Source: Methylomonas rosea (GTDB lineage Bacteria; Pseudomonadota; Gammaproteobacteria; Methylococcales; Methylomonadaceae). From it: a stretch of 24,000 nucleotides of DNA. Shown here one piece after another: positions 1 through 10,754 of the stretch. Position numbers and translations under genes: made by a program. The notes beneath the pieces are model-generated. The model saw only the letters and a program-made list of their open reading frames with translations, made no database searches and had not been told where the DNA came from. The DNA is taken from assembly GCF_024505055.1 (NCBI RefSeq), contig NZ_JANIBL010000051.1:10738-34737 (forward strand), given 5' to 3'. Position 1 is the stretch's first letter. Every line of letters begins with the position of its first letter.

Positions 1-489
1 CGCTTGAGCAAGACTCAGAATGGTCTGGCGTATTATGCCGCCTATCGGCAAATCGACGCCGGCGCCCGCCGCGATATTCAGCGCGTGTTTCAGCAGTTTC
101 GGGTGGAACTACAGCCCGTCGTGGAATGGCTGGACATGATGATGGCCTGTTTGCATCGCGATGCAGCCTTGTCGCCTGGCGATACGCTGAGTTTCGGGGC
201 GCTATTGCAGGTCATCGAGAGCAATCAGGCTTTGGCGGATCGTCTGCAAACCTTTGGCCGCTTCAAAGACTTTGTCTGCACCGACGATGCCATGAAAAGC
301 CGTCTGGAAAAACTGCTGAAAACATTGGATCAATGGGGCTATTTGCATCTGTCCAACCGCGACACCCTGATTTACCAAGTGACCGGCAAGCTGGATTATT
401 TCTATCAGGCGCTGCAATTCATCAAAGAGCATGAACAATTGCCGATCACGCAGGACGAAGATGACGTAGCCCAGGAGAGTCTGTTTTGA
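1..489 (+). CDS. Hypothetical protein, 5'-truncated by the window edge. Helical, with a winged-helix-like C-terminal segment and an acidic tail. First visible gene of a coupled operon.
   Basis: The reading frame is open through nt 1-3. Stop TGA 487-489 overlaps the TTG start of the next gene (TTGA at 486-489). There is no Walker A motif: the only GK, in VTGKL, lacks the G-x4-GK[ST] context. The C-terminal KSRLEKLLKTLDQWGYLHLSNRDTLIYQVTGKLDYF resembles a wHTH. Confidence 0.6.
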   Translation, partial: RLSKTQNGLAYYAAYRQIDAGARRDIQRVFQQFRVELQPVVEWLDMMMACLHRDAALSPGDTLSFGALLQVIESNQALADRLQTFGRFKDFVCTDDAMKSRLEKLLKTLDQWGYLHLSNRDTLIYQVTGKLDYFYQALQFIKEHEQLPITQDEDDVAQESLF

Positions 490-1709
490 GTCAGGCTGAA
501 CAAAGCATGGAACGGCTGTTCAAGGCGCTGGCCAACCATAGCGAACTGATCGCCAAGGCCTATTTCAATGGCACCATCTATTCGGATAGCCAGAATCAAC
601 GCACCCTCAATCAGCTAAAGCAATTGAAAGTGCTGGTCAATCACGGCGACGATGGTTTCCGCATCGCCGGCCGGTTGAGCCAGTTTCTCGATAGCGCCTT
701 GAGTAGCGACCGGATCCGCCGTTTGGATACCGATCTGTCGAGCTGGATCGATACCCTGGAGCAGCAGATTGGTTTGTACCAGGATGCCTGGCGGGAGAAC
801 CGGCTGGACGATGTCGATCATTACCTGCTGGAAATCCAAAGGCTGGTATTCGATTTGGCCGACAATCTGGAGGAAAACACCAGTTATCTGTTGATGTTGG
901 TCAACAGCCGATTTGCCAATGTCCGGACTCTGGCGGAAAAACAAAAACAGAACACCTTTTATATTGCCCGTCTGGAAAAACTGGTGAATGCCATCAGCGC
1001 TTTGCAACCGGAATTTTTACTGGAATACGTCGAGGAACAACCGGAGTTGCATCAATTGCTGGAGCGACAATTGCTCCGGCTATTGCCAAAGTATCAACAA
1101 CGGCTGCAGGACATCCTCGATAAGCTAAAAATTTTCCTGTTCGAACTGCGGCAAATCGAAATGCTTGCGCAACTGGTTCAGGGTTTTGCGTTTTATCTGC
1201 GGCAAAATCCCGATTACCAGCCGTTGGATTGGAGCGAGCACGATCAGATTCCTGAACATTGGAATCGCATTCAACCCTTAGCGTTGTCGGCGCATGCCGA
1301 TCCCATGGACCACGCTGTGGAGCAGGAACTGGTCGAGATCGTACAGAAGATTCGTATCGATAGCGATGCCTTGTTAGCCAAGCAGAAACAGCGGCGTTTG
1401 AACGCGGTGACATTAAACCCTGCGGAAAAACAGACTCTACAAGTTCCTAAATACCGACGGCAACTGGCGGCTTATATGGCCAAAGTCCGTCAACAATCTG
1501 GCCGGCCATTATCGGCGCTGGCTTTTCAACAGGTGTTTGCCAACGATGTTGAACCCGCCATCTGGTTGGCGTGCGTGATGAACGAATGCATGAAACAGCA
1601 ACATAAGTCCTTGCAAGTCGAATGGCGGGAGATAGGCCAAGGAGCGGGCTTTACCGGCAACAAAAAGATTTGCGATATCGTGTTGTGCTGTCGGGATGGC
1701 GAAAGATGA
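486..1709 (+). CDS. Hypothetical 407-aa protein, predominantly alpha-helical and coiled-coil-looking. No nucleotide-binding motif. Middle gene of the coupled operon; a structural or kleisin-like role is speculative.
   Basis: Long ORF with 4-nt overlaps at both ends (TTGA at 486-489, ATGA at 1706-1709). Leu/Gln/Glu-rich heptad-like stretches such as LLEIQRLVFDLADNLEENTSYLLMLV and QQRLQDILDKLKIFLFELRQIEMLAQLV. No GxxxxGK[ST]. An alternative ATG start lies at about nt 507. Confidence 0.65.
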   Translation: MSQAEQSMERLFKALANHSELIAKAYFNGTIYSDSQNQRTLNQLKQLKVLVNHGDDGFRIAGRLSQFLDSALSSDRIRRLDTDLSSWIDTLEQQIGLYQDAWRENRLDDVDHYLLEIQRLVFDLADNLEENTSYLLMLVNSRFANVRTLAEKQKQNTFYIARLEKLVNAISALQPEFLLEYVEEQPELHQLLERQLLRLLPKYQQRLQDILDKLKIFLFELRQIEMLAQLVQGFAFYLRQNPDYQPLDWSEHDQIPEHWNRIQPLALSAHADPMDHAVEQELVEIVQKIRIDSDALLAKQKQRRLNAVTLNPAEKQTLQVPKYRRQLAAYMAKVRQQSGRPLSALAFQQVFANDVEPAIWLACVMNECMKQQHKSLQVEWREIGQGAGFTGNKKICDIVLCCRDGER

Positions 1710-2572
1710 ACAAAACATGGTTGGCGGTGATAGCTCGCGCGATCGATAGTGAACAGGAGCTATTTCCGCTCAATCAAACCTGGCAGGCCATTCACCAGGA
1801 ATACAACATCGGCCTGACTCAAGCCAAAAAACTGCTGCTCAGCTACCAAGACAAACTGGAACTGAGGGAACTCGTCCAAAAAATTTCTCATATCGATTTG
1901 CAGAAAGTCAGTCCGGGTGAGTTTGCCGGTATGCAACGGGAACAGGTTCTAACCCTGGCCATAAATGAAAAGCTGGCCGGTCAATCGGTGAAGAAAAACC
2001 GTCTGGCCATTAAATCCTTACCGGGCAGGGCGCTCAAGTTAAACGGTGAACACTATCGATTGCCGGAGAACAGCCATTGCGATATGGCCTTAGAAAGTAT
2101 CAGTAGCGTCGAACATCAGAGCATGTGGATTATTGAAAATTACCGCTGCTTCGATCAGTTGGGCGCCATCAAGTTGGAGGAATCGGCGGCGTCCACCGAA
2201 CCCTTGGTGGTGTTTCGTGGCGATCATATTTATCAGGCTGGCACGGTGTTGAGTCTGATCGAAAAGCTTCAGTTGCCGGTCTGGGTAATGGGTGACCTGG
2301 ACCCGAAAGGCCTGAGCATCGCGCAGTCTTATCCCAACTTTGCCGGCTTGATTGCGCCGAACATGGCAGTGTTGGAGAACTATTTTAGCGACCCCAGCAA
2401 AGCCAATCGTAAACTCTACGAAAAACAACTTGCCGGCTGCCGAAAGGCATTATCGGATACCCGCTACCCCATCATCGAGAATTGTTGGAAGAAGATAAAG
2501 CGGCATCAGGCAGGCATTGTTCAGGAGCATTGGCTGGTCGTTAACACGACGCTGAAAATGCACCCAGCCTAA
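1706..2572 (+). CDS. Toprim-domain protein of the Topo VI-A/Spo11/JetD (DUF2220-like) type, 288 aa. Putative metal-dependent DNA nuclease subunit.
   Basis: ATG 1706 overlaps the upstream stop (ATGA), so I prefer it to the track's start at 1622. Motifs: MWIIENYRCFDQL (Glu144, nt 2135-2137), LVVFRGD, and LPVWVMGDLDPKGLSIA (Asp197 and Asp199, nt 2294-2302). This reproduces the E...DxDPxG Toprim pattern of Topo VI-A/Spo11 and JetD/MksG. Confidence 0.65.
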   Translation: MNKTWLAVIARAIDSEQELFPLNQTWQAIHQEYNIGLTQAKKLLLSYQDKLELRELVQKISHIDLQKVSPGEFAGMQREQVLTLAINEKLAGQSVKKNRLAIKSLPGRALKLNGEHYRLPENSHCDMALESISSVEHQSMWIIENYRCFDQLGAIKLEESAASTEPLVVFRGDHIYQAGTVLSLIEKLQLPVWVMGDLDPKGLSIAQSYPNFAGLIAPNMAVLENYFSDPSKANRKLYEKQLAGCRKALSDTRYPIIENCWKKIKRHQAGIVQEHWLVVNTTLKMHPA

Positions 2573-2592: not shown

Positions 2593-2940
2593 ATGATTCC
2601 AGAGCCAATACCCAACCTTTATCAAGATCGCTTTCCACGTTTAACCGAAAACGGCGAGTTGATGACTGATGCGATCATCAAATTGACGCACCGGTACCTG
2701 GATGGAAAACCAGCCAAAGTCGGAAAGCGAAGCTTGAGCGCAGCTGATCGAGATCTCGATTTTTGGAATGCCATTTTTTGGGAAGACGTCTCCAACGAGA
2801 TTTTCGAGACCGAAGCCTTCGCATTGGCTTTGGCTCGTTATCTTCAGCAAAACAAGGTGACCCGGCCGGGTTGGCTCCAAAACCTGGTTGTCAGGGCGCC
2901 AGTAGCACTCCGGCGTGCCATTCGATATTCCCAGGTGTGA
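2593..2940 (+). CDS. Hypothetical 115-aa protein. Uncertain; it may be an accessory gene of the upstream operon or a spurious ORF.
   Basis: ATG lies 20 nt after the previous stop, with only a weak purine-rich RBS (gtgaaga). The last 50 nt overlap the 3' end of convergent leuA. A GC-rich palindrome that could be the leuA terminator (2860-2871) lies inside it. Confidence 0.3.
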   Translation: MIPEPIPNLYQDRFPRLTENGELMTDAIIKLTHRYLDGKPAKVGKRSLSAADRDLDFWNAIFWEDVSNEIFETEAFALALARYLQQNKVTRPGWLQNLVVRAPVALRRAIRYSQV

Positions 2941-4552
2941 TCGATGCGCTGACAATGTTGCCGTCCATGCCGACGCCATAGGCGGTTTGGCCCTTTGCAG
3001 CCGCCAGTTCGACAAAGGCGCAAGCCTGGGCATCGCCGCCGCTGCCGGTCGAGCGTTCCTCGTAGCTGCACACCGACACTGCGCCGCCGAGTGTGCCTAA
3101 AGCTTGGACGGCCGCGGCTATCGGCCCGTTACCCACGCCGGTTAAGGTACGCGGTTCGCCGTCCCACTCGATTTGCAGTCGTATGCCTTGGTCTTGCGCA
3201 TGCTCGTACAATTGATGGCCGAGATAAGCCATAGGCTTAGCCACATCGAGATACGTCTGTGCGAATAATCGCCATAACTGTTCCGCGCCGATTTCGCCTC
3301 CGTGGCGGTCGGTATGCAGTTGGACGACTTGCGAAAACTCGATTTGCAAACGGCGCGGCAGTACCACACCATAATGACTTTCCAGTAAGTGGGCGATGCC
3401 GCCCTTGCCCGACTGGCTGTTGATGCGGATCACCGCGTCGTATCCGCGCCCGACATCGGCCGGATCGAACGGCAGATAGGGCACATTCCAGACGCTATCA
3501 GGCTGCCGTGCGGCAAAGCCTTTCTTGATGGCGTCTTGGTGCGATCCGGAAAACGCGGTGAACACCAACTCGCCGGCATAGGGTTGGCGCGGCGGCACGC
3601 TCAGGCCGGTGCAAGCCTCGAAATCGCGCACTACGGCATTGATGTAGGAAAAATCCAAGCCCGGAGCGATGCCTTGGGTATAAAGATTCAACGCCAGGGT
3701 CACTAAATCCACGTTACTGGTACGTTCGCCGTTGCCGAACAAGCAACCCTCGACGCGCTCGGCGCCGGCCATCAACGCCAGTTCGGCGGCGGCTACCGCC
3801 GTGCCGCGGTCGTTGTGCGGATGTACACTGAGAATGACGCTGTCGCGGCGGGCGATATGGCGATGCATCCATTCGATCTGGTCGGCGTAGACGTTCGGCG
3901 TCGCCGTTTCCACCGACGACGGCAAATTCAAGATGATCTTATTATCCGGCGTCGCTCCCCAGGCGGCGCTGACCGCATCGCACACCTCCACGGCAAAATC
4001 CGGCTCGGTGGCGGTGAAGGTTTCCAGGCTGTATTGCAAGCGCCATTGGGTTTGCGGCTGGTCGGCGGTCAATTGTTTGACCAGCCGCACCGCATCGACG
4101 GCCATCGCCAATACCCCGGCACGGCTCATGCCCAACACCAGTTCGCGAAACGGTTGGGAGGTCGCGTTGACGATATGGACGATGGCCGAACGTGCGCCGT
4201 GCAAGGCTTCTACAGTGCGTCGCAACAGCGGTTCGCGGGCGTGGCTGAGCACTTCGATGGTAACGTCGTCGGGTATCAACGCCTCGTCTATCAAGCGGCG
4301 CACGAAATCGAATTCGGTTTGCGAGGCCGACGGAAACGCTACTTCGATTTCCTTGAAACCGATGGCGCATAAGGTGCGGAACAGGCGCAATTTGCGTTCG
4401 GCGTTCATCGGTTCGAACAAAGCCTGGTTGCCGTCGCGCAAATCGGTGCTCATCCAGATCGGCGCTTGGCTAATCGTGCGGTTGGGCCATTGGCGGTCGG
4501 CAAGTTTCACCGGTGGGAATGGACGGTATTTGCGGGAAGGGTCGGTCAACAT
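2891..4552 (-). CDS. leuA: 2-isopropylmalate synthase, long form (553 aa).
   Basis: N-terminus KYRPFPPVKLADRQWPNRTISQAPIWMSTDLRDGNQAL. HPHNDRGTAVAAAELALMAGAERVEGCLFGNGER catalytic TIM-barrel motifs. A C-terminal regulatory domain is present, but the last about 16 aa are atypical (see findings). Confidence 0.95.
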   Translation of the reverse strand: MLTDPSRKYRPFPPVKLADRQWPNRTISQAPIWMSTDLRDGNQALFEPMNAERKLRLFRTLCAIGFKEIEVAFPSASQTEFDFVRRLIDEALIPDDVTIEVLSHAREPLLRRTVEALHGARSAIVHIVNATSQPFRELVLGMSRAGVLAMAVDAVRLVKQLTADQPQTQWRLQYSLETFTATEPDFAVEVCDAVSAAWGATPDNKIILNLPSSVETATPNVYADQIEWMHRHIARRDSVILSVHPHNDRGTAVAAAELALMAGAERVEGCLFGNGERTSNVDLVTLALNLYTQGIAPGLDFSYINAVVRDFEACTGLSVPPRQPYAGELVFTAFSGSHQDAIKKGFAARQPDSVWNVPYLPFDPADVGRGYDAVIRINSQSGKGGIAHLLESHYGVVLPRRLQIEFSQVVQLHTDRHGGEIGAEQLWRLFAQTYLDVAKPMAYLGHQLYEHAQDQGIRLQIEWDGEPRTLTGVGNGPIAAAVQALGTLGGAVSVCSYEERSTGSGGDAQACAFVELAAAKGQTAYGVGMDGNIVSASITPGNIEWHAGVLLAP

Positions 4553-8630: not shown

Positions 8631-8657
8631 ATAAAAAACCCGCCTCAGGGCGGGTTG
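8631..8657 (-). terminator. Rho-independent terminator (minus strand).
   Basis: Minus strand reads AACCCGCC-CTGA-GGCGGGTT followed by TTTTTTAT: a perfect 8-bp GC-rich stem, a 4-nt loop and a T6 tail. Confidence 0.8.
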
Positions 8658-8738
8658 CAGTAGAAAGTAAACGTGCTAACCCACCATTGGGGAAATGGTG
8701 GTAATAATAGCCAGCAGGGTTGGGAACACGTTAATCAT
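8631..8738 (-). other. Candidate small transcript of about 108 nt. Either a leaderless 20-codon hydrophobic ORF (MINVFPTLLAIITTISPMVG, 8676-8738) or an sRNA.
   Basis: Minus strand carries TTGATC (8768-8773), a 17-nt spacer, then TGtTAACAT (extended -10; hexamer at 8745-8750). ATG is 7 nt downstream of the hexamer. An internal 8-bp hairpin lies at 8681-8701, followed by the intrinsic terminator at 8631-8657. Confidence 0.25.
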
Positions 8739-10482: not shown

Positions 10483-10491
10483 GGCCGCGCT

Positions 10492-10644
10492 TGTGCTCAG
10501 GGCGGGGCGGAATTCCCCACCGGCGGTATCTCGGGTTTGACTCGGGGAGCCCGCGAGCGCCGCAATCTCTGTTGTTGAGAATGAGGGTCAGCAGATCTGG
10601 TGAGACGCCAGAGCCGACGGTCATAGTCCGGATGAAAGAGAACA
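10492..10644 (+). promoter_or_regulatory. FMN riboswitch (RFN element) aptamer.
   Basis: Conserved RFN blocks: cagggcggggcggaattccccaccggcggt, agcccgcgagcg, ggtcagcagatctggtgagacgccagagccgacggt, and agtccggatgaaagagaa. Located directly upstream of ribB. Both track ORFs across it (10430-10756 minus, 10491-10703 plus) are spurious. Confidence 0.92.
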
Positions 10645-10754
10645 GCGCCAAGTATTCCGCACGTTTTATCGTGCCTGGAAGGCTTGTTTCTGCTCGTAAA
10701 TAGTATCTTTCAGCCCTGATTCTGGTACTTCCATAACTTATTAGGAGTTTTACC

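What the first reader, a model, noticed from the sequence alone, without database searches (positions are those of the whole stretch)
1..2572. Edge-truncated, translationally coupled operon ending in a compact Topo VI-A/JetD-type Toprim protein with non-canonical partners
Three + strand genes are joined by 4-nt stop/start overlaps (TTGA at 486-489, ATGA at 1706-1709). This is one coupled operon, and its 5' part lies outside the window.

The last product (288 aa) has the Toprim signature in the arrangement known from Topo VI-A/Spo11 and the Wadjet/Mks nuclease JetD (MksG):
- a strand plus Glu in MWIIENYRCFDQL (E144, nt 2135-2137);
- LVVFRGD;
- LPVWVMGDLDPKGLSIA (D197-x-D199-P-x-G, nt 2294-2302).

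The context is not classical Wadjet. In jetABCD the gene directly upstream of jetD is the SMC-like ATPase JetC (over 1000 aa). Here the two upstream genes encode a 407-aa all-helical protein and a protein of at least 162 aa with a winged-helix-like C-terminus. Neither has a Walker A motif. The Toprim protein is also shorter than the JetD proteins I recall (roughly 350-400 aa), and its N-terminal 140 aa look unrelated.

Two readings are possible. It may be a rearranged or minimal Wadjet/Mks-like variant with the ATPase further upstream. Or it may be a distinct Toprim-nuclease system, possibly for DNA or plasmid restriction. This is the best candidate in the window for an undescribed system, but only its tail is visible.
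Basis: partly seen in the sequence, partly recalled or inferred. Interest (0 to 1): 0.8.

Follow-up and report, generated by a model that had tools for sequence, protein, structure and literature searches.

The report
Rearranged Wadjet-type SMC plasmid-defence operon tail
The three genes are the end of a four-gene condensin-like (SMC) operon with a DNA-cutting subunit, a rare gene-order variant of the Wadjet/MksBEFG systems that destroy plasmids; the variant is already listed in a published catalogue but has never been tested.

Summary
Three + strand genes are joined by TTGA (486-489) and ATGA (1706-1709), and the operon runs off the 5' edge. The window is Methylomonas rosea DNA. An identical contig shows the missing part: a 1218-aa SMC-like ATPase (Pfam DUF3584) and the first 45 codons of a 207-aa MksE (KITE) protein.

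The operon is therefore mksB-mksE-mksF-mksG.
- The 288-aa product is Pfam DUF7281. Its model matches Topo VI-A and the MksG nuclease. E144 and D197/D199 align with the Topo VI-A metal ligands and are conserved across the family.
- The 407-aa product is probably the kleisin, but the evidence for that is weak.

The four-gene cassette recurs at 20-30% identity in Pseudomonas megaplasmids, Thauera, marine bacteria and many Methylococcales. It sits in unrelated neighbourhoods, often on conjugative elements or large plasmids.

The variant is not undescribed: Bürmann et al. 2025 (Data S1) list 11 'BEFG' operon clusters as Wadjet-group members, including Methylomonas sp. 11b. It remains uncharacterised, and PADLOC v2 profiles give only weak or no matches to its subunits.

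Verdict: new member of a known kind, moderate-to-low interest.

The parts
1..489 (+). 3' part of mksE (KITE subunit), residues 46-207 of a 207-aa protein. Its stop (487-489) overlaps the next start.
   Evidence: Identical contig L001 8161-8784. The full-length protein matches Pfam PF21980 MksE at E 4.2e-10, 40.7 bits against a cutoff of 27, and weakly matches DUF4194/JetB at 0.0027.
486..1709 (+). mksF-like gene, 407 aa, the probable kleisin. It has helical N-terminal and middle parts, a low-confidence linker (about 261-318) and a C-terminal winged-helix-like domain (about 322-402). The start is TTG, overlapping the mksE stop by 4 nt.
   Evidence: AF2 model: pLDDT 65, C-terminal domain about 82. 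The best PDB fold matches, all weak (E 0.03-0.25), are MukF (7nz2_C, 9gm7_C, 7nyw_C, 3euh_A, 1t98_A) and JetA (8dk2_A). There is no Pfam family, and hhalign against E. coli MukF is not significant. The Methylomonas sp. 11b orthologue is assigned MksF in PMC7617805 Data S1. The -4 overlapping start is conserved in 35/35 loci.
1706..2572 (+). mksG/jetD-like Toprim nuclease gene, 288 aa (Pfam DUF7281). The catalytic codons are E144 (2135-2137) and D197-x-D199 (2294-2302).
   Evidence: PF23947, E 1.8e-24; DUF2399, 0.0023; TOP6A Toprim, 0.024. PADLOC JetD2, 3.9e-7. AF2 pLDDT 82. Foldseek hits: Topo VI-A 1d3y/2zbk/9o8p (probability 1.0) and MksG 8b7f (probability 0.98). The profile alignment puts E144 and D197/D199 on the Topo VI-A E...DxD motif. 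Conservation.
2593..2940 (+). Remnant (first 115 codons) of a 785-aa NERD-domain gene. It marks the right-hand edge of the imported segment that carries the operon and is not part of the system itself.
   Evidence: 78% identity over all 115 aa to the N-terminus of L009 10888-13245. DNA homology to Methylomonas sp. 11b ends at L001 11233 = window 2938. GC rises from about 0.50 to about 0.58 there.

Best explanation
Window 1-2572 is the distal end of a four-gene, translationally coupled operon, mksB-mksE-mksF-mksG, in Methylomonas rosea. It belongs to a rare 'BEFG'-order lineage of the Wadjet/MksBEFG group of SMC complexes.

Shown here:
- MksB is a 1218-aa DUF3584 protein encoded just upstream of the window. 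It has Walker A GVNGAGKTT and Walker B IIWPMDE.
- MksE is a KITE protein.
- The 288-aa product has the Topo VI-A/MksG fold with a conserved E...DxD metal site and no conserved tyrosine.
- The four genes co-occur and co-diverge across Proteobacteria.
- They sit in variable, often mobile, contexts.

Inferred by analogy with JetABCD/MksBEFG:
- An MksB dimer closed by the 407-aa kleisin, with MksE bound, loads on DNA and extrudes loops using ATP.
- On a small circular DNA the motor runs out of substrate and stalls.
- A dimer of the Toprim subunit then cuts the DNA hydrolytically, so small plasmids are destroyed while the chromosome and very large replicons are spared.
For: Composition:
- Upstream genes on the identical contig.
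- DUF3584, E 2.2e-208, and MksE, E 4.2e-10.
- ATPase motifs read directly from the sequence.

Nuclease: DUF7281 with weak DUF2399, TOP6A and JetD2 hits; fold matches to Topo VI-A and MksG; catalytic residues aligned with Topo VI-A and conserved.

Cassette conservation:
- B-E-F-G appears in the same order in Pseudomonas serbica and Pseudomonas sp. PLMAX megaplasmids, P. nitroreducens, Thauera, a Tara marine contig, a Rhodoferax plasmid and many Methylococcales.
- All four proteins diverge in parallel, at 21-32% identity.
- 36 loci carry all four genes.

Defence-like ecology:
- Flanking genes are unrelated between most loci.
- Neighbours include type I HsdR and Fic, F-type T4SS genes, an integrase and ParDE.
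- Other neighbours are a GmrSD/HNH gene and RelB, filamentous prophages, and a CBASS operon inside Tn7-like cargo.
- All 15 PLSDB plasmids with a homologue are 107 kb to 1.17 Mb. [quoted passage not shown]

Literature: PMC7617805 Data S1 lists the Methylomonas sp. 11b orthologous operon as a Wadjet-group 'BEFG' operon.
Against: - No activity has been measured for any member of this lineage.
- The kleisin assignment rests on gene position, weak fold hits and a published iterative-profile assignment. Pfam and hhalign find nothing.
- PADLOC Wadjet profiles match only weakly or not at all: JetA none, JetB 0.0065, JetC about 0.002, JetD 3.9e-7.
- The nuclease has an N-terminal region less than half the length of JetD's, so coupling to the motor could differ.
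- Three-gene relatives without the nuclease exist in Shewanella, and a nuclease-less DUF3584 trio in Shewanella gave a cisplatin-sensitivity and motility phenotype. The motor can therefore serve chromosomal functions.
- Some Methylococcales loci lie directly between housekeeping genes.
Confidence: 0.7

Rival explanations
1. It is a chromosome-maintenance or DNA-repair condensin, like MukBEF or P. aeruginosa MksBEF. On this view the complex organises or repairs the host chromosome, and the Toprim subunit resolves entanglements or processes damage rather than attacking foreign DNA.
For: Homologous B-E-F operons without the nuclease sit in a conserved neighbourhood in three Shewanella genomes. 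In Shewanella, DUF3584 and two cofit neighbours were important for cisplatin resistance and motility (10.1101/072470). The cassette is widespread in Methylococcales, and some copies lie between housekeeping genes such as dsbB and priA/argS.
Against: The copies that keep the nuclease show unrelated flanks even within one order and are often on ICE-like regions, large plasmids or transposon cargo next to other defence genes. Chromosomal SMC relatives (MukBEF, P. aeruginosa MksBEF) characteristically lack MksG (PMC7617805 and PMC10586767). The phenotype data concern nuclease-less operons only.
Confidence: 0.12
2. It is a weapon or maintenance device of the mobile element that carries it. An ICE or megaplasmid would use the complex to eliminate competing small plasmids, or to organise its own large DNA. 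Any benefit to the host would be secondary.
For: In M. koyamae and Methylomonas sp. 11b the operon lies beside traN/traU/trbC/traC/traV, and in sp. 11b also near an integrase and ParDE. Pseudomonas copies are on plasmids of roughly 0.9-1.2 Mb. All 15 plasmid carriers are at least 107 kb. In M. rosea the segment has lower GC than the flank and ends in a truncated gene.
Against: The biochemical mechanism would be the same as in the best explanation, so this is a difference of beneficiary, not of mechanism. The tra association is seen only in the closely related Methylomonas group. Large plasmids carry more genes of every kind, so the size bias is only suggestive. In M. rosea the transfer genes are absent.
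Confidence: 0.15
3. It is a distinct Toprim-nuclease system unrelated to SMC complexes. Two non-ATPase partners would form a new restriction module.
For: Within the window alone there is no ATPase. The 407-aa protein matches no family.
Against: An SMC-like ATPase gene overlaps the first gene by 8 nt just outside the window. It accompanies the three genes in 36 loci. The first gene is MksE.
Confidence: 0.02

Closest known systems
Wadjet / JetABCD = MksBEFG = EptABCD (types I-III), the SMC-based anti-plasmid system
   Same: It has the same four roles: a MukB-like SMC ATPase, a KITE subunit (MksE/JetB), a kleisin-position protein, and a Topo VI-A-like Toprim nuclease with the E...DxD metal site and no catalytic tyrosine. 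All are encoded in one co-directional, overlapping operon. Distribution is sporadic, in variable and mobile contexts.
   Different: Gene order is B-E-F-G instead of F-E-B-G (jetABCD). The nuclease is 288 aa, against PADLOC JetD profile lengths of 345-430 positions, and its N-terminal region is much shorter. It has its own Pfam family (DUF7281) rather than DUF3322/DUF2220/DUF2399. The kleisin candidate (407 aa) matches no JetA/MukF family. PADLOC v2 Wadjet profiles give only weak or no hits. No member of this lineage has been tested.
'BEFG' operons in the Wadjet-group catalogue of Bürmann et al. 2025 (Cell; PMC7617805, Data S1)
   Same: This is the same lineage. Cluster 10 is Methylomonas sp. 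11b, with genes of 1218, 207, 407 and 288 codons, identical in length to the M. rosea genes. Its MksG is 77% identical. Other listed members are Psychrobacter, Acinetobacter (one on a 275-kb plasmid), Vibrio breoganii, Ferribacterium, Ferrimonas, Paraferrimonas and Psychromonas.
   Different: The catalogue only lists coordinates and subunit assignments: 11 BEFG and 1 BEF clusters, against 609 FEBG and 93 FEB. The passages of the paper that I read do not discuss this lineage. M. rosea itself is not listed on the part of the table I read.
Topoisomerase VI subunit A / Spo11
   Same: The Toprim fold with the same metal-binding glutamate and DxD. These are the best structural matches and the best sequence-profile matches in the PDB.
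   Different: No tyrosine is invariant or nearly invariant (at least 90%) across the 54-sequence family alignment. There is no Top6B-type GHKL ATPase partner; the partner is an SMC complex. A hydrolytic nuclease is expected, not a religating topoisomerase.
MukBEF and nuclease-less MksBEF (E. coli; P. aeruginosa; the Shewanella DUF3584 trio)
   Same: An SMC-kleisin-KITE core. The Shewanella trio is a true homologue in the same B-E-F order.
   Different: Those complexes lack the nuclease and act on the chromosome. The locus here keeps an intact nuclease and lies in an imported segment.

Membership tests
Wadjet / MksBEFG group | MukB-like SMC ATPase with Walker A/B and a long coiled coil | tested here: met
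   A 1218-aa gene lies immediately upstream on the identical contig. It matches PF12128 DUF3584 at E 2.2e-208 over residues 10-1188. The sequence contains GVNGAGKTT and IIWPMDE. PADLOC describes its JetC profiles as 'DUF3584 domain; MukB-like', but they match only at E about 0.002-0.03.
Wadjet / MksBEFG group | KITE subunit (MksE/JetB/MukE) | tested here: met
   PF21980 MksE, E 4.2e-10, 40.7 bits against a cutoff of 27. DUF4194 at 0.0027.
Wadjet / MksBEFG group | Kleisin (MksF/JetA/MukF) bridging the SMC heads | tested here: inconclusive
   The top PDB fold hits are MukF and JetA, but at E 0.03-0.25 on a model of pLDDT 65. There is no Pfam hit in 14 diverse members. hhalign against E. coli MukF gives probability 0.18. 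Bürmann et al. assign the protein MksF by iterative profiles. Its position, size and C-terminal winged-helix-like domain fit.
Wadjet / MksBEFG group | Toprim nuclease subunit (MksG/JetD) with metal-binding E and DxD | tested here: met
   E144 and D197/D199 align to the Topo VI-A motif that also aligns with MksG E236/D279 (PMC10123090).
Wadjet / MksBEFG group | Canonical operon order kleisin-KITE-SMC-nuclease (jetABCD / mksFEBG) | tested here: not met
   The order is SMC-KITE-kleisin-nuclease in every locus examined. Order is a habit of types I-III rather than a functional requirement. Bürmann et al. accept BEFG operons as group members.
Wadjet / MksBEFG group | Restriction of small circular DNA by ATP-dependent extrusion and cleavage | not testable with these tools
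   This needs transformation assays and biochemistry. The only indirect hint is that all 15 carrier plasmids are at least 107 kb.
Wadjet / MksBEFG group | Detection by current defence-system profiles (PADLOC v2 Wadjet models) | tested here: not met
   JetA none, JetB 0.0065, JetC 0.0019-0.03, JetD2 3.9e-7. I ran single-protein profile scans only, not the PADLOC system caller.
Topoisomerase VI-A / Spo11 | Catalytic tyrosine in a 5Y-CAP domain | tested here: not met
   No tyrosine is invariant or nearly invariant in the 54-sequence family alignment. Y33 and Y238 are conserved only among the close relatives.
Topoisomerase VI-A / Spo11 | Toprim domain with E...DxD | tested here: met
Topoisomerase VI-A / Spo11 | GHKL ATPase partner (Top6B) | tested here: not met
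   No such gene is present in any neighbourhood examined. The partner is an SMC-type ATPase.

The most novel reading that the evidence does not exclude
The BEFG lineage could be a mechanistically separate fourth type of Wadjet. On this reading it has a minimal nuclease that docks through the conserved but predicted-disordered segment (R78, E88-K89, residues about 68-96) and a kleisin unrelated in sequence to JetA/MukF. It would be carried mainly by ICEs and plasmids larger than 100 kb as a weapon against smaller competing replicons, with size-based sparing of its own carrier. Repeated loss of the nuclease (Shewanella, some Methylococcales) would turn the same motor into a repair or segregation factor.
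Probability: 0.2. Interest if true: 0.55.

Novelty: new member of a known kind. Interest (0 to 1): 0.3.

Why it matters
For annotation: in this and dozens of other genomes the three 'hypothetical' or DUF genes can be labelled mksE, mksF-like and mksG, parts of a Wadjet-group operon. The PADLOC v2 Wadjet profiles gave only weak or no matches to them, and Pfam leaves them as DUF3584, no family and DUF7281.

For the field:
- The lineage offers a compact nuclease subunit and a reversed operon.
- It includes natural pairs with and without the nuclease.
- Together these could help to test how the nuclease is coupled to the SMC motor, and how a defence motor becomes a chromosomal one.
- Its presence on ICE-like regions and only on large plasmids bears on how Wadjet-type systems avoid attacking their own carrier.

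None of this overturns current understanding.

Tried and rejected
- PDB sequence searches with the single proteins found nothing meaningful.
- The search for related loci with alignments of the Toprim protein failed three times for lack of a conserved 7-10-residue stretch. I used an alignment of three SMC proteins instead, which biased the 57 loci toward Methylococcales.
- The second profile search of the protein database was dominated by Methylococcales because of the word-index candidate cap.
- Pfam scans of 14 diverse kleisin candidates gave only coiled-coil noise. hhalign against E. coli MukF was not significant.
- I looked for a conserved fifth gene. HU sits upstream in Methylomonas, but small ORFs flanking the cassette in five other loci share no family. 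Rejected.
- Petrushenko 2011 and Rybenkov 2014 were not held in the library.
- No paper mentions DUF7281, and none names a 'Wadjet IV'.
- No tRNA gene marks the island edge in the window.
Full report
**1. The observation**

- TTGA lies at 486-489 and ATGA at 1706-1709.
- They join three + strand ORFs: 4..489, 486..1709 and 1706..2572.
- The first ORF has no start inside the window.

**2. What lies upstream**

The 288-aa product is 100% identical to a Methylomonas rosea protein.

A 37.8-kb Logan contig (L001) is identical to the window over the 600 bases of overlap that were aligned; window position 1 equals L001 8296. In order, L001 carries:
- a Fic gene, a 23S-IVP gene, a type I hsdR gene and an HU gene;
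- a 1218-aa gene, a 207-aa gene, the 407-aa gene and the 288-aa gene.

The 1218-aa gene overlaps the 207-aa gene by 8 nt.

The upstream proteins identify the operon.
- The 1218-aa protein matches Pfam DUF3584 end to end (E 2.2e-208).
- The 207-aa protein matches Pfam MksE (E 4.2e-10, above the curated cutoff).
- The large protein contains a Walker A motif (GVNGAGKTT) and a Walker B motif (IIWPMDE), separated by about 900 mostly Q/E/L/A/K/R-rich residues.

The window therefore holds the last 162 codons of mksE plus two further genes of a four-gene SMC operon.

**3. The 288-aa protein**

*Sequence families.*
- Pfam places residues 100-284 in DUF7281 (E 1.8e-24).
- Sub-threshold hits go to DUF2399 (named in PADLOC's JetD2 profile descriptions) and to the Topo VI-A Toprim domain.
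- The best PADLOC hit is JetD2, E 3.9e-7, over residues 129-275.

*Structure.*
- An AlphaFold2 model built from 31 homologues has mean pLDDT 82; only residues 68-96 are below 50.
- Foldseek against the PDB returns Topo VI-A (1d3y, 2zbk, 9o8p, 9o0g; probability 1.0) and the C. glutamicum MksG nuclease (8b7f; probability 0.98). Nothing else is credible.
- A family profile searched against PDB sequences aligns 'ilvVENleaF' with the Topo VI-A glutamate strand and 'DlDPaG' with its DxDPxG.

*Catalytic residues.*
- E144 and D197/D199 are thus the counterparts of the Topo VI-A metal ligands.
- In MksG the equivalent E236 and D279 are required for nuclease activity (PMC10123090).
- These residues, with R171-G172-D173 and Q273-E274, are invariant in 31 Methylococcales sequences.
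- D197, D199, R171 and G172 stay invariant, and E144, Q273 and E274 nearly so, in 54 sequences at 20-40% identity.
- No tyrosine is conserved across the family. As reported for MksG and JetD, the protein should be a hydrolytic nuclease, not a topoisomerase.

*Family size.* An exhaustive profile search finds 680 cluster representatives at E up to 0.001 and 393 at E up to 1e-10. Most of the 150 listed are 270-300 aa long.

**4. The 407-aa protein**

This is the weakest link.
- Close homologues are abundant and well conserved, but no Pfam, NCBIfam or PADLOC family matches.
- The model is mediocre: pLDDT 65, with a better C-terminal helix-helix-helix-strand-strand domain at about 82.
- Its best PDB matches are MukF and JetA chains, which is the right answer for a kleisin, but at E 0.03-0.25.
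- hhalign against E. coli MukF is not significant.

I call it the probable kleisin for four reasons: its position, its size, its C-terminal winged-helix-like domain and those weak hits. In addition, Bürmann et al. assigned the orthologue as MksF by iterated profiles.

**5. Conservation of the cassette**

The same four genes in the same order occur in:
- a 1.06-Mb Pseudomonas serbica plasmid and the 949-kb plasmid pPLMAXa;
- P. nitroreducens and Thauera;
- a Tara Oceans contig and a plasmid-like metagenome contig;
- a 107-kb Rhodoferax plasmid;
- many Methylococcales.

Between Methylomonas, Pseudomonas and the marine organism all four proteins are 21-32% identical, so they have diverged together.

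Of the loci fetched, 36 carry all four genes. The 4-nt overlap at the mksE/mksF junction is present in all 35 tallied, and it uses ATG in the distant clades.

The nuclease is missing, with ample flanking sequence, in four Shewanella loci and in at least two Methylococcales MAGs. One locus has a lone DUF7281 gene next to an integrase.

**6. Genomic context**

Flanking genes are unrelated between most loci, even within Methylococcales.
- In M. koyamae and Methylomonas sp. 11b the operon abuts F-type transfer genes (traN, traU, trbC, traC, traV). In sp. 11b an integrase and ParDE are also nearby.
- In an Enterobacter IncC plasmid it lies in Tn7-like cargo next to a CBASS operon, and its mksB is split by ISSod4.
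- Fifteen of 72,556 PLSDB plasmids carry a homologue; all are 107 kb to 1.17 Mb.
- Other copies lie between ordinary genes or next to sbcCD and a resolvase.

In M. rosea the imported segment ends just past the operon.
- The 115-codon ORF at 2593-2940 is the N-terminus of a 785-aa NERD protein of sp. 11b (78% identity).
- DNA homology stops at window 2938.
- GC rises from about 0.50 to about 0.58 at that point.

By contrast, the nuclease-less Shewanella loci share 9-12 flanking ORFs. In three Shewanella species a DUF3584 gene and two cofit neighbours were important for cisplatin resistance and motility (10.1101/072470).

**7. Mechanism**

*Shown:* the parts list, the conserved catalytic residues, the coupling, the co-divergence and the mobile, defence-rich contexts.

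*Inferred* from JetABCD/MksBEFG work (PMC10586767, PMC10123090, 10.1101/2022.10.04.510915):
- an MksB dimer closed by the kleisin, with MksE bound, extrudes DNA;
- complete extrusion of a small circle stalls the motor;
- the Toprim dimer then cleaves.

The absence of carrier plasmids under 100 kb fits the reported size limit of about 100 kb. Large plasmids carry more of everything, however, so this is only suggestive.

One point is unexplained. The most conserved N-terminal residues (R78, E88-K89) lie in the segment the model leaves disordered. I suggest it is a docking peptide for the motor.

**8. Comparison with what is known**

- It works like, and by composition belongs to, the Wadjet/Mks group.
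- It departs from types I-III in four ways: gene order, a nuclease with a much shorter N-terminal region and its own Pfam family, a kleisin with no recognisable family, and only weak or absent matches to PADLOC Wadjet profiles.
- It is not a Topo VI-A: there is no conserved tyrosine and no Top6B.

**9. Novelty**

Bürmann et al. 2025 surveyed the Wadjet group by iterative profiles. Their Data S1 lists 11 'BEFG' and 1 'BEF' operon clusters, against 609 'FEBG' and 93 'FEB'.

Cluster 10 is Methylomonas sp. 11b. Its gene lengths are identical to those here, and it lies on the same 5,412,720-bp scaffold that carries P0017.

The lineage is therefore catalogued as Wadjet-group, though the passages I read do not discuss it and it is untested. 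No paper mentions DUF7281.

**10. Verdict**

The M. rosea operon is a new member of a known kind.

Noticed in passing
window 2593-2940 (+), junction at about 2938; leuA 2891-4552 (-): The 115-codon ORF after the operon is the intact N-terminus of a 785-aa NERD-domain protein found in Methylomonas sp. 11b (78% identity). DNA homology ends at 2938 and GC rises from about 0.50 to about 0.58. The last roughly 16 codons of the convergent leuA ORF lie inside the imported sequence, so the leuA 3' end may have been remodelled by the insertion or deletion.
   Followed up: partly
window 10489-10647 (+): An FMN riboswitch (Rfam RF00050, 104.5 bits) lies upstream of the DHBP synthase (ribB) gene.
   Followed up: no
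window 8635-8711 (-): A match to Rfam 'Pseudomonas sRNA P9' (RF00624, 63.8 bits against a gathering score of 43) in a Methylomonas genome.
   Followed up: no
L055, L056, L057, L061 (Shewanella): Homologous mksB-mksE-mksF operons in the same order with no trace of the Toprim gene, in a neighbourhood shared by three of the genomes. A DUF3584 trio in Shewanella gave cisplatin and motility phenotypes in Price et al. (bioRxiv 10.1101/072470). I did not check whether those are the same genes.
   Followed up: partly
L023, L030, L060 (Methylococcales MAGs); L026 15766-16572: Nuclease loss also occurs inside the Methylococcales clade. L023 and L030 have B-E-F but no mksG within 8 kb downstream. L060 has none in the 1.1 kb left on its contig. 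L026 has only a shortened (234-aa) ORF after a gap.
   Followed up: partly
L005 10001-10906: A lone DUF7281 gene (301 aa) with no SMC, MksE or kleisin gene nearby, lying downstream of a phage-type integrase gene and a Na/H exchanger gene.
   Followed up: no
L069 (Enterobacter hormaechei IncC plasmid pVIM-Exn692, 137928-145678): The BEFG cassette sits inside Tn7-like transposon cargo beside a CBASS operon (nucleotidyltransferase, ThiF-like, JAB, SAVED). Its mksB is interrupted by an IS256-family element (ISSod4).
   Followed up: no
PLSDB hits H1-H15: Every plasmid that encodes a DUF7281 homologue is large (107 kb to 1.17 Mb); none is below 100 kb. The collection's mean record length is about 100 kb. 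The comparison is not normalised for gene number.
   Followed up: partly
window about 1907-1993 (MksG residues 68-96): The only low-confidence segment of the MksG model contains some of the most conserved residues of the family (R78 invariant; E88 and K89 nearly invariant in 54 sequences). This suggests a partner-binding peptide that folds on binding.
   Followed up: no
L001 4118-4390; L008 4131-4403; L009 4109-4381: An HU-family gene sits about 120-140 nt upstream of mksB in the Methylomonas copies (also in L011-L013). Small ORFs flanking the cassette in five other loci share no family with HU or with each other.
   Followed up: yes
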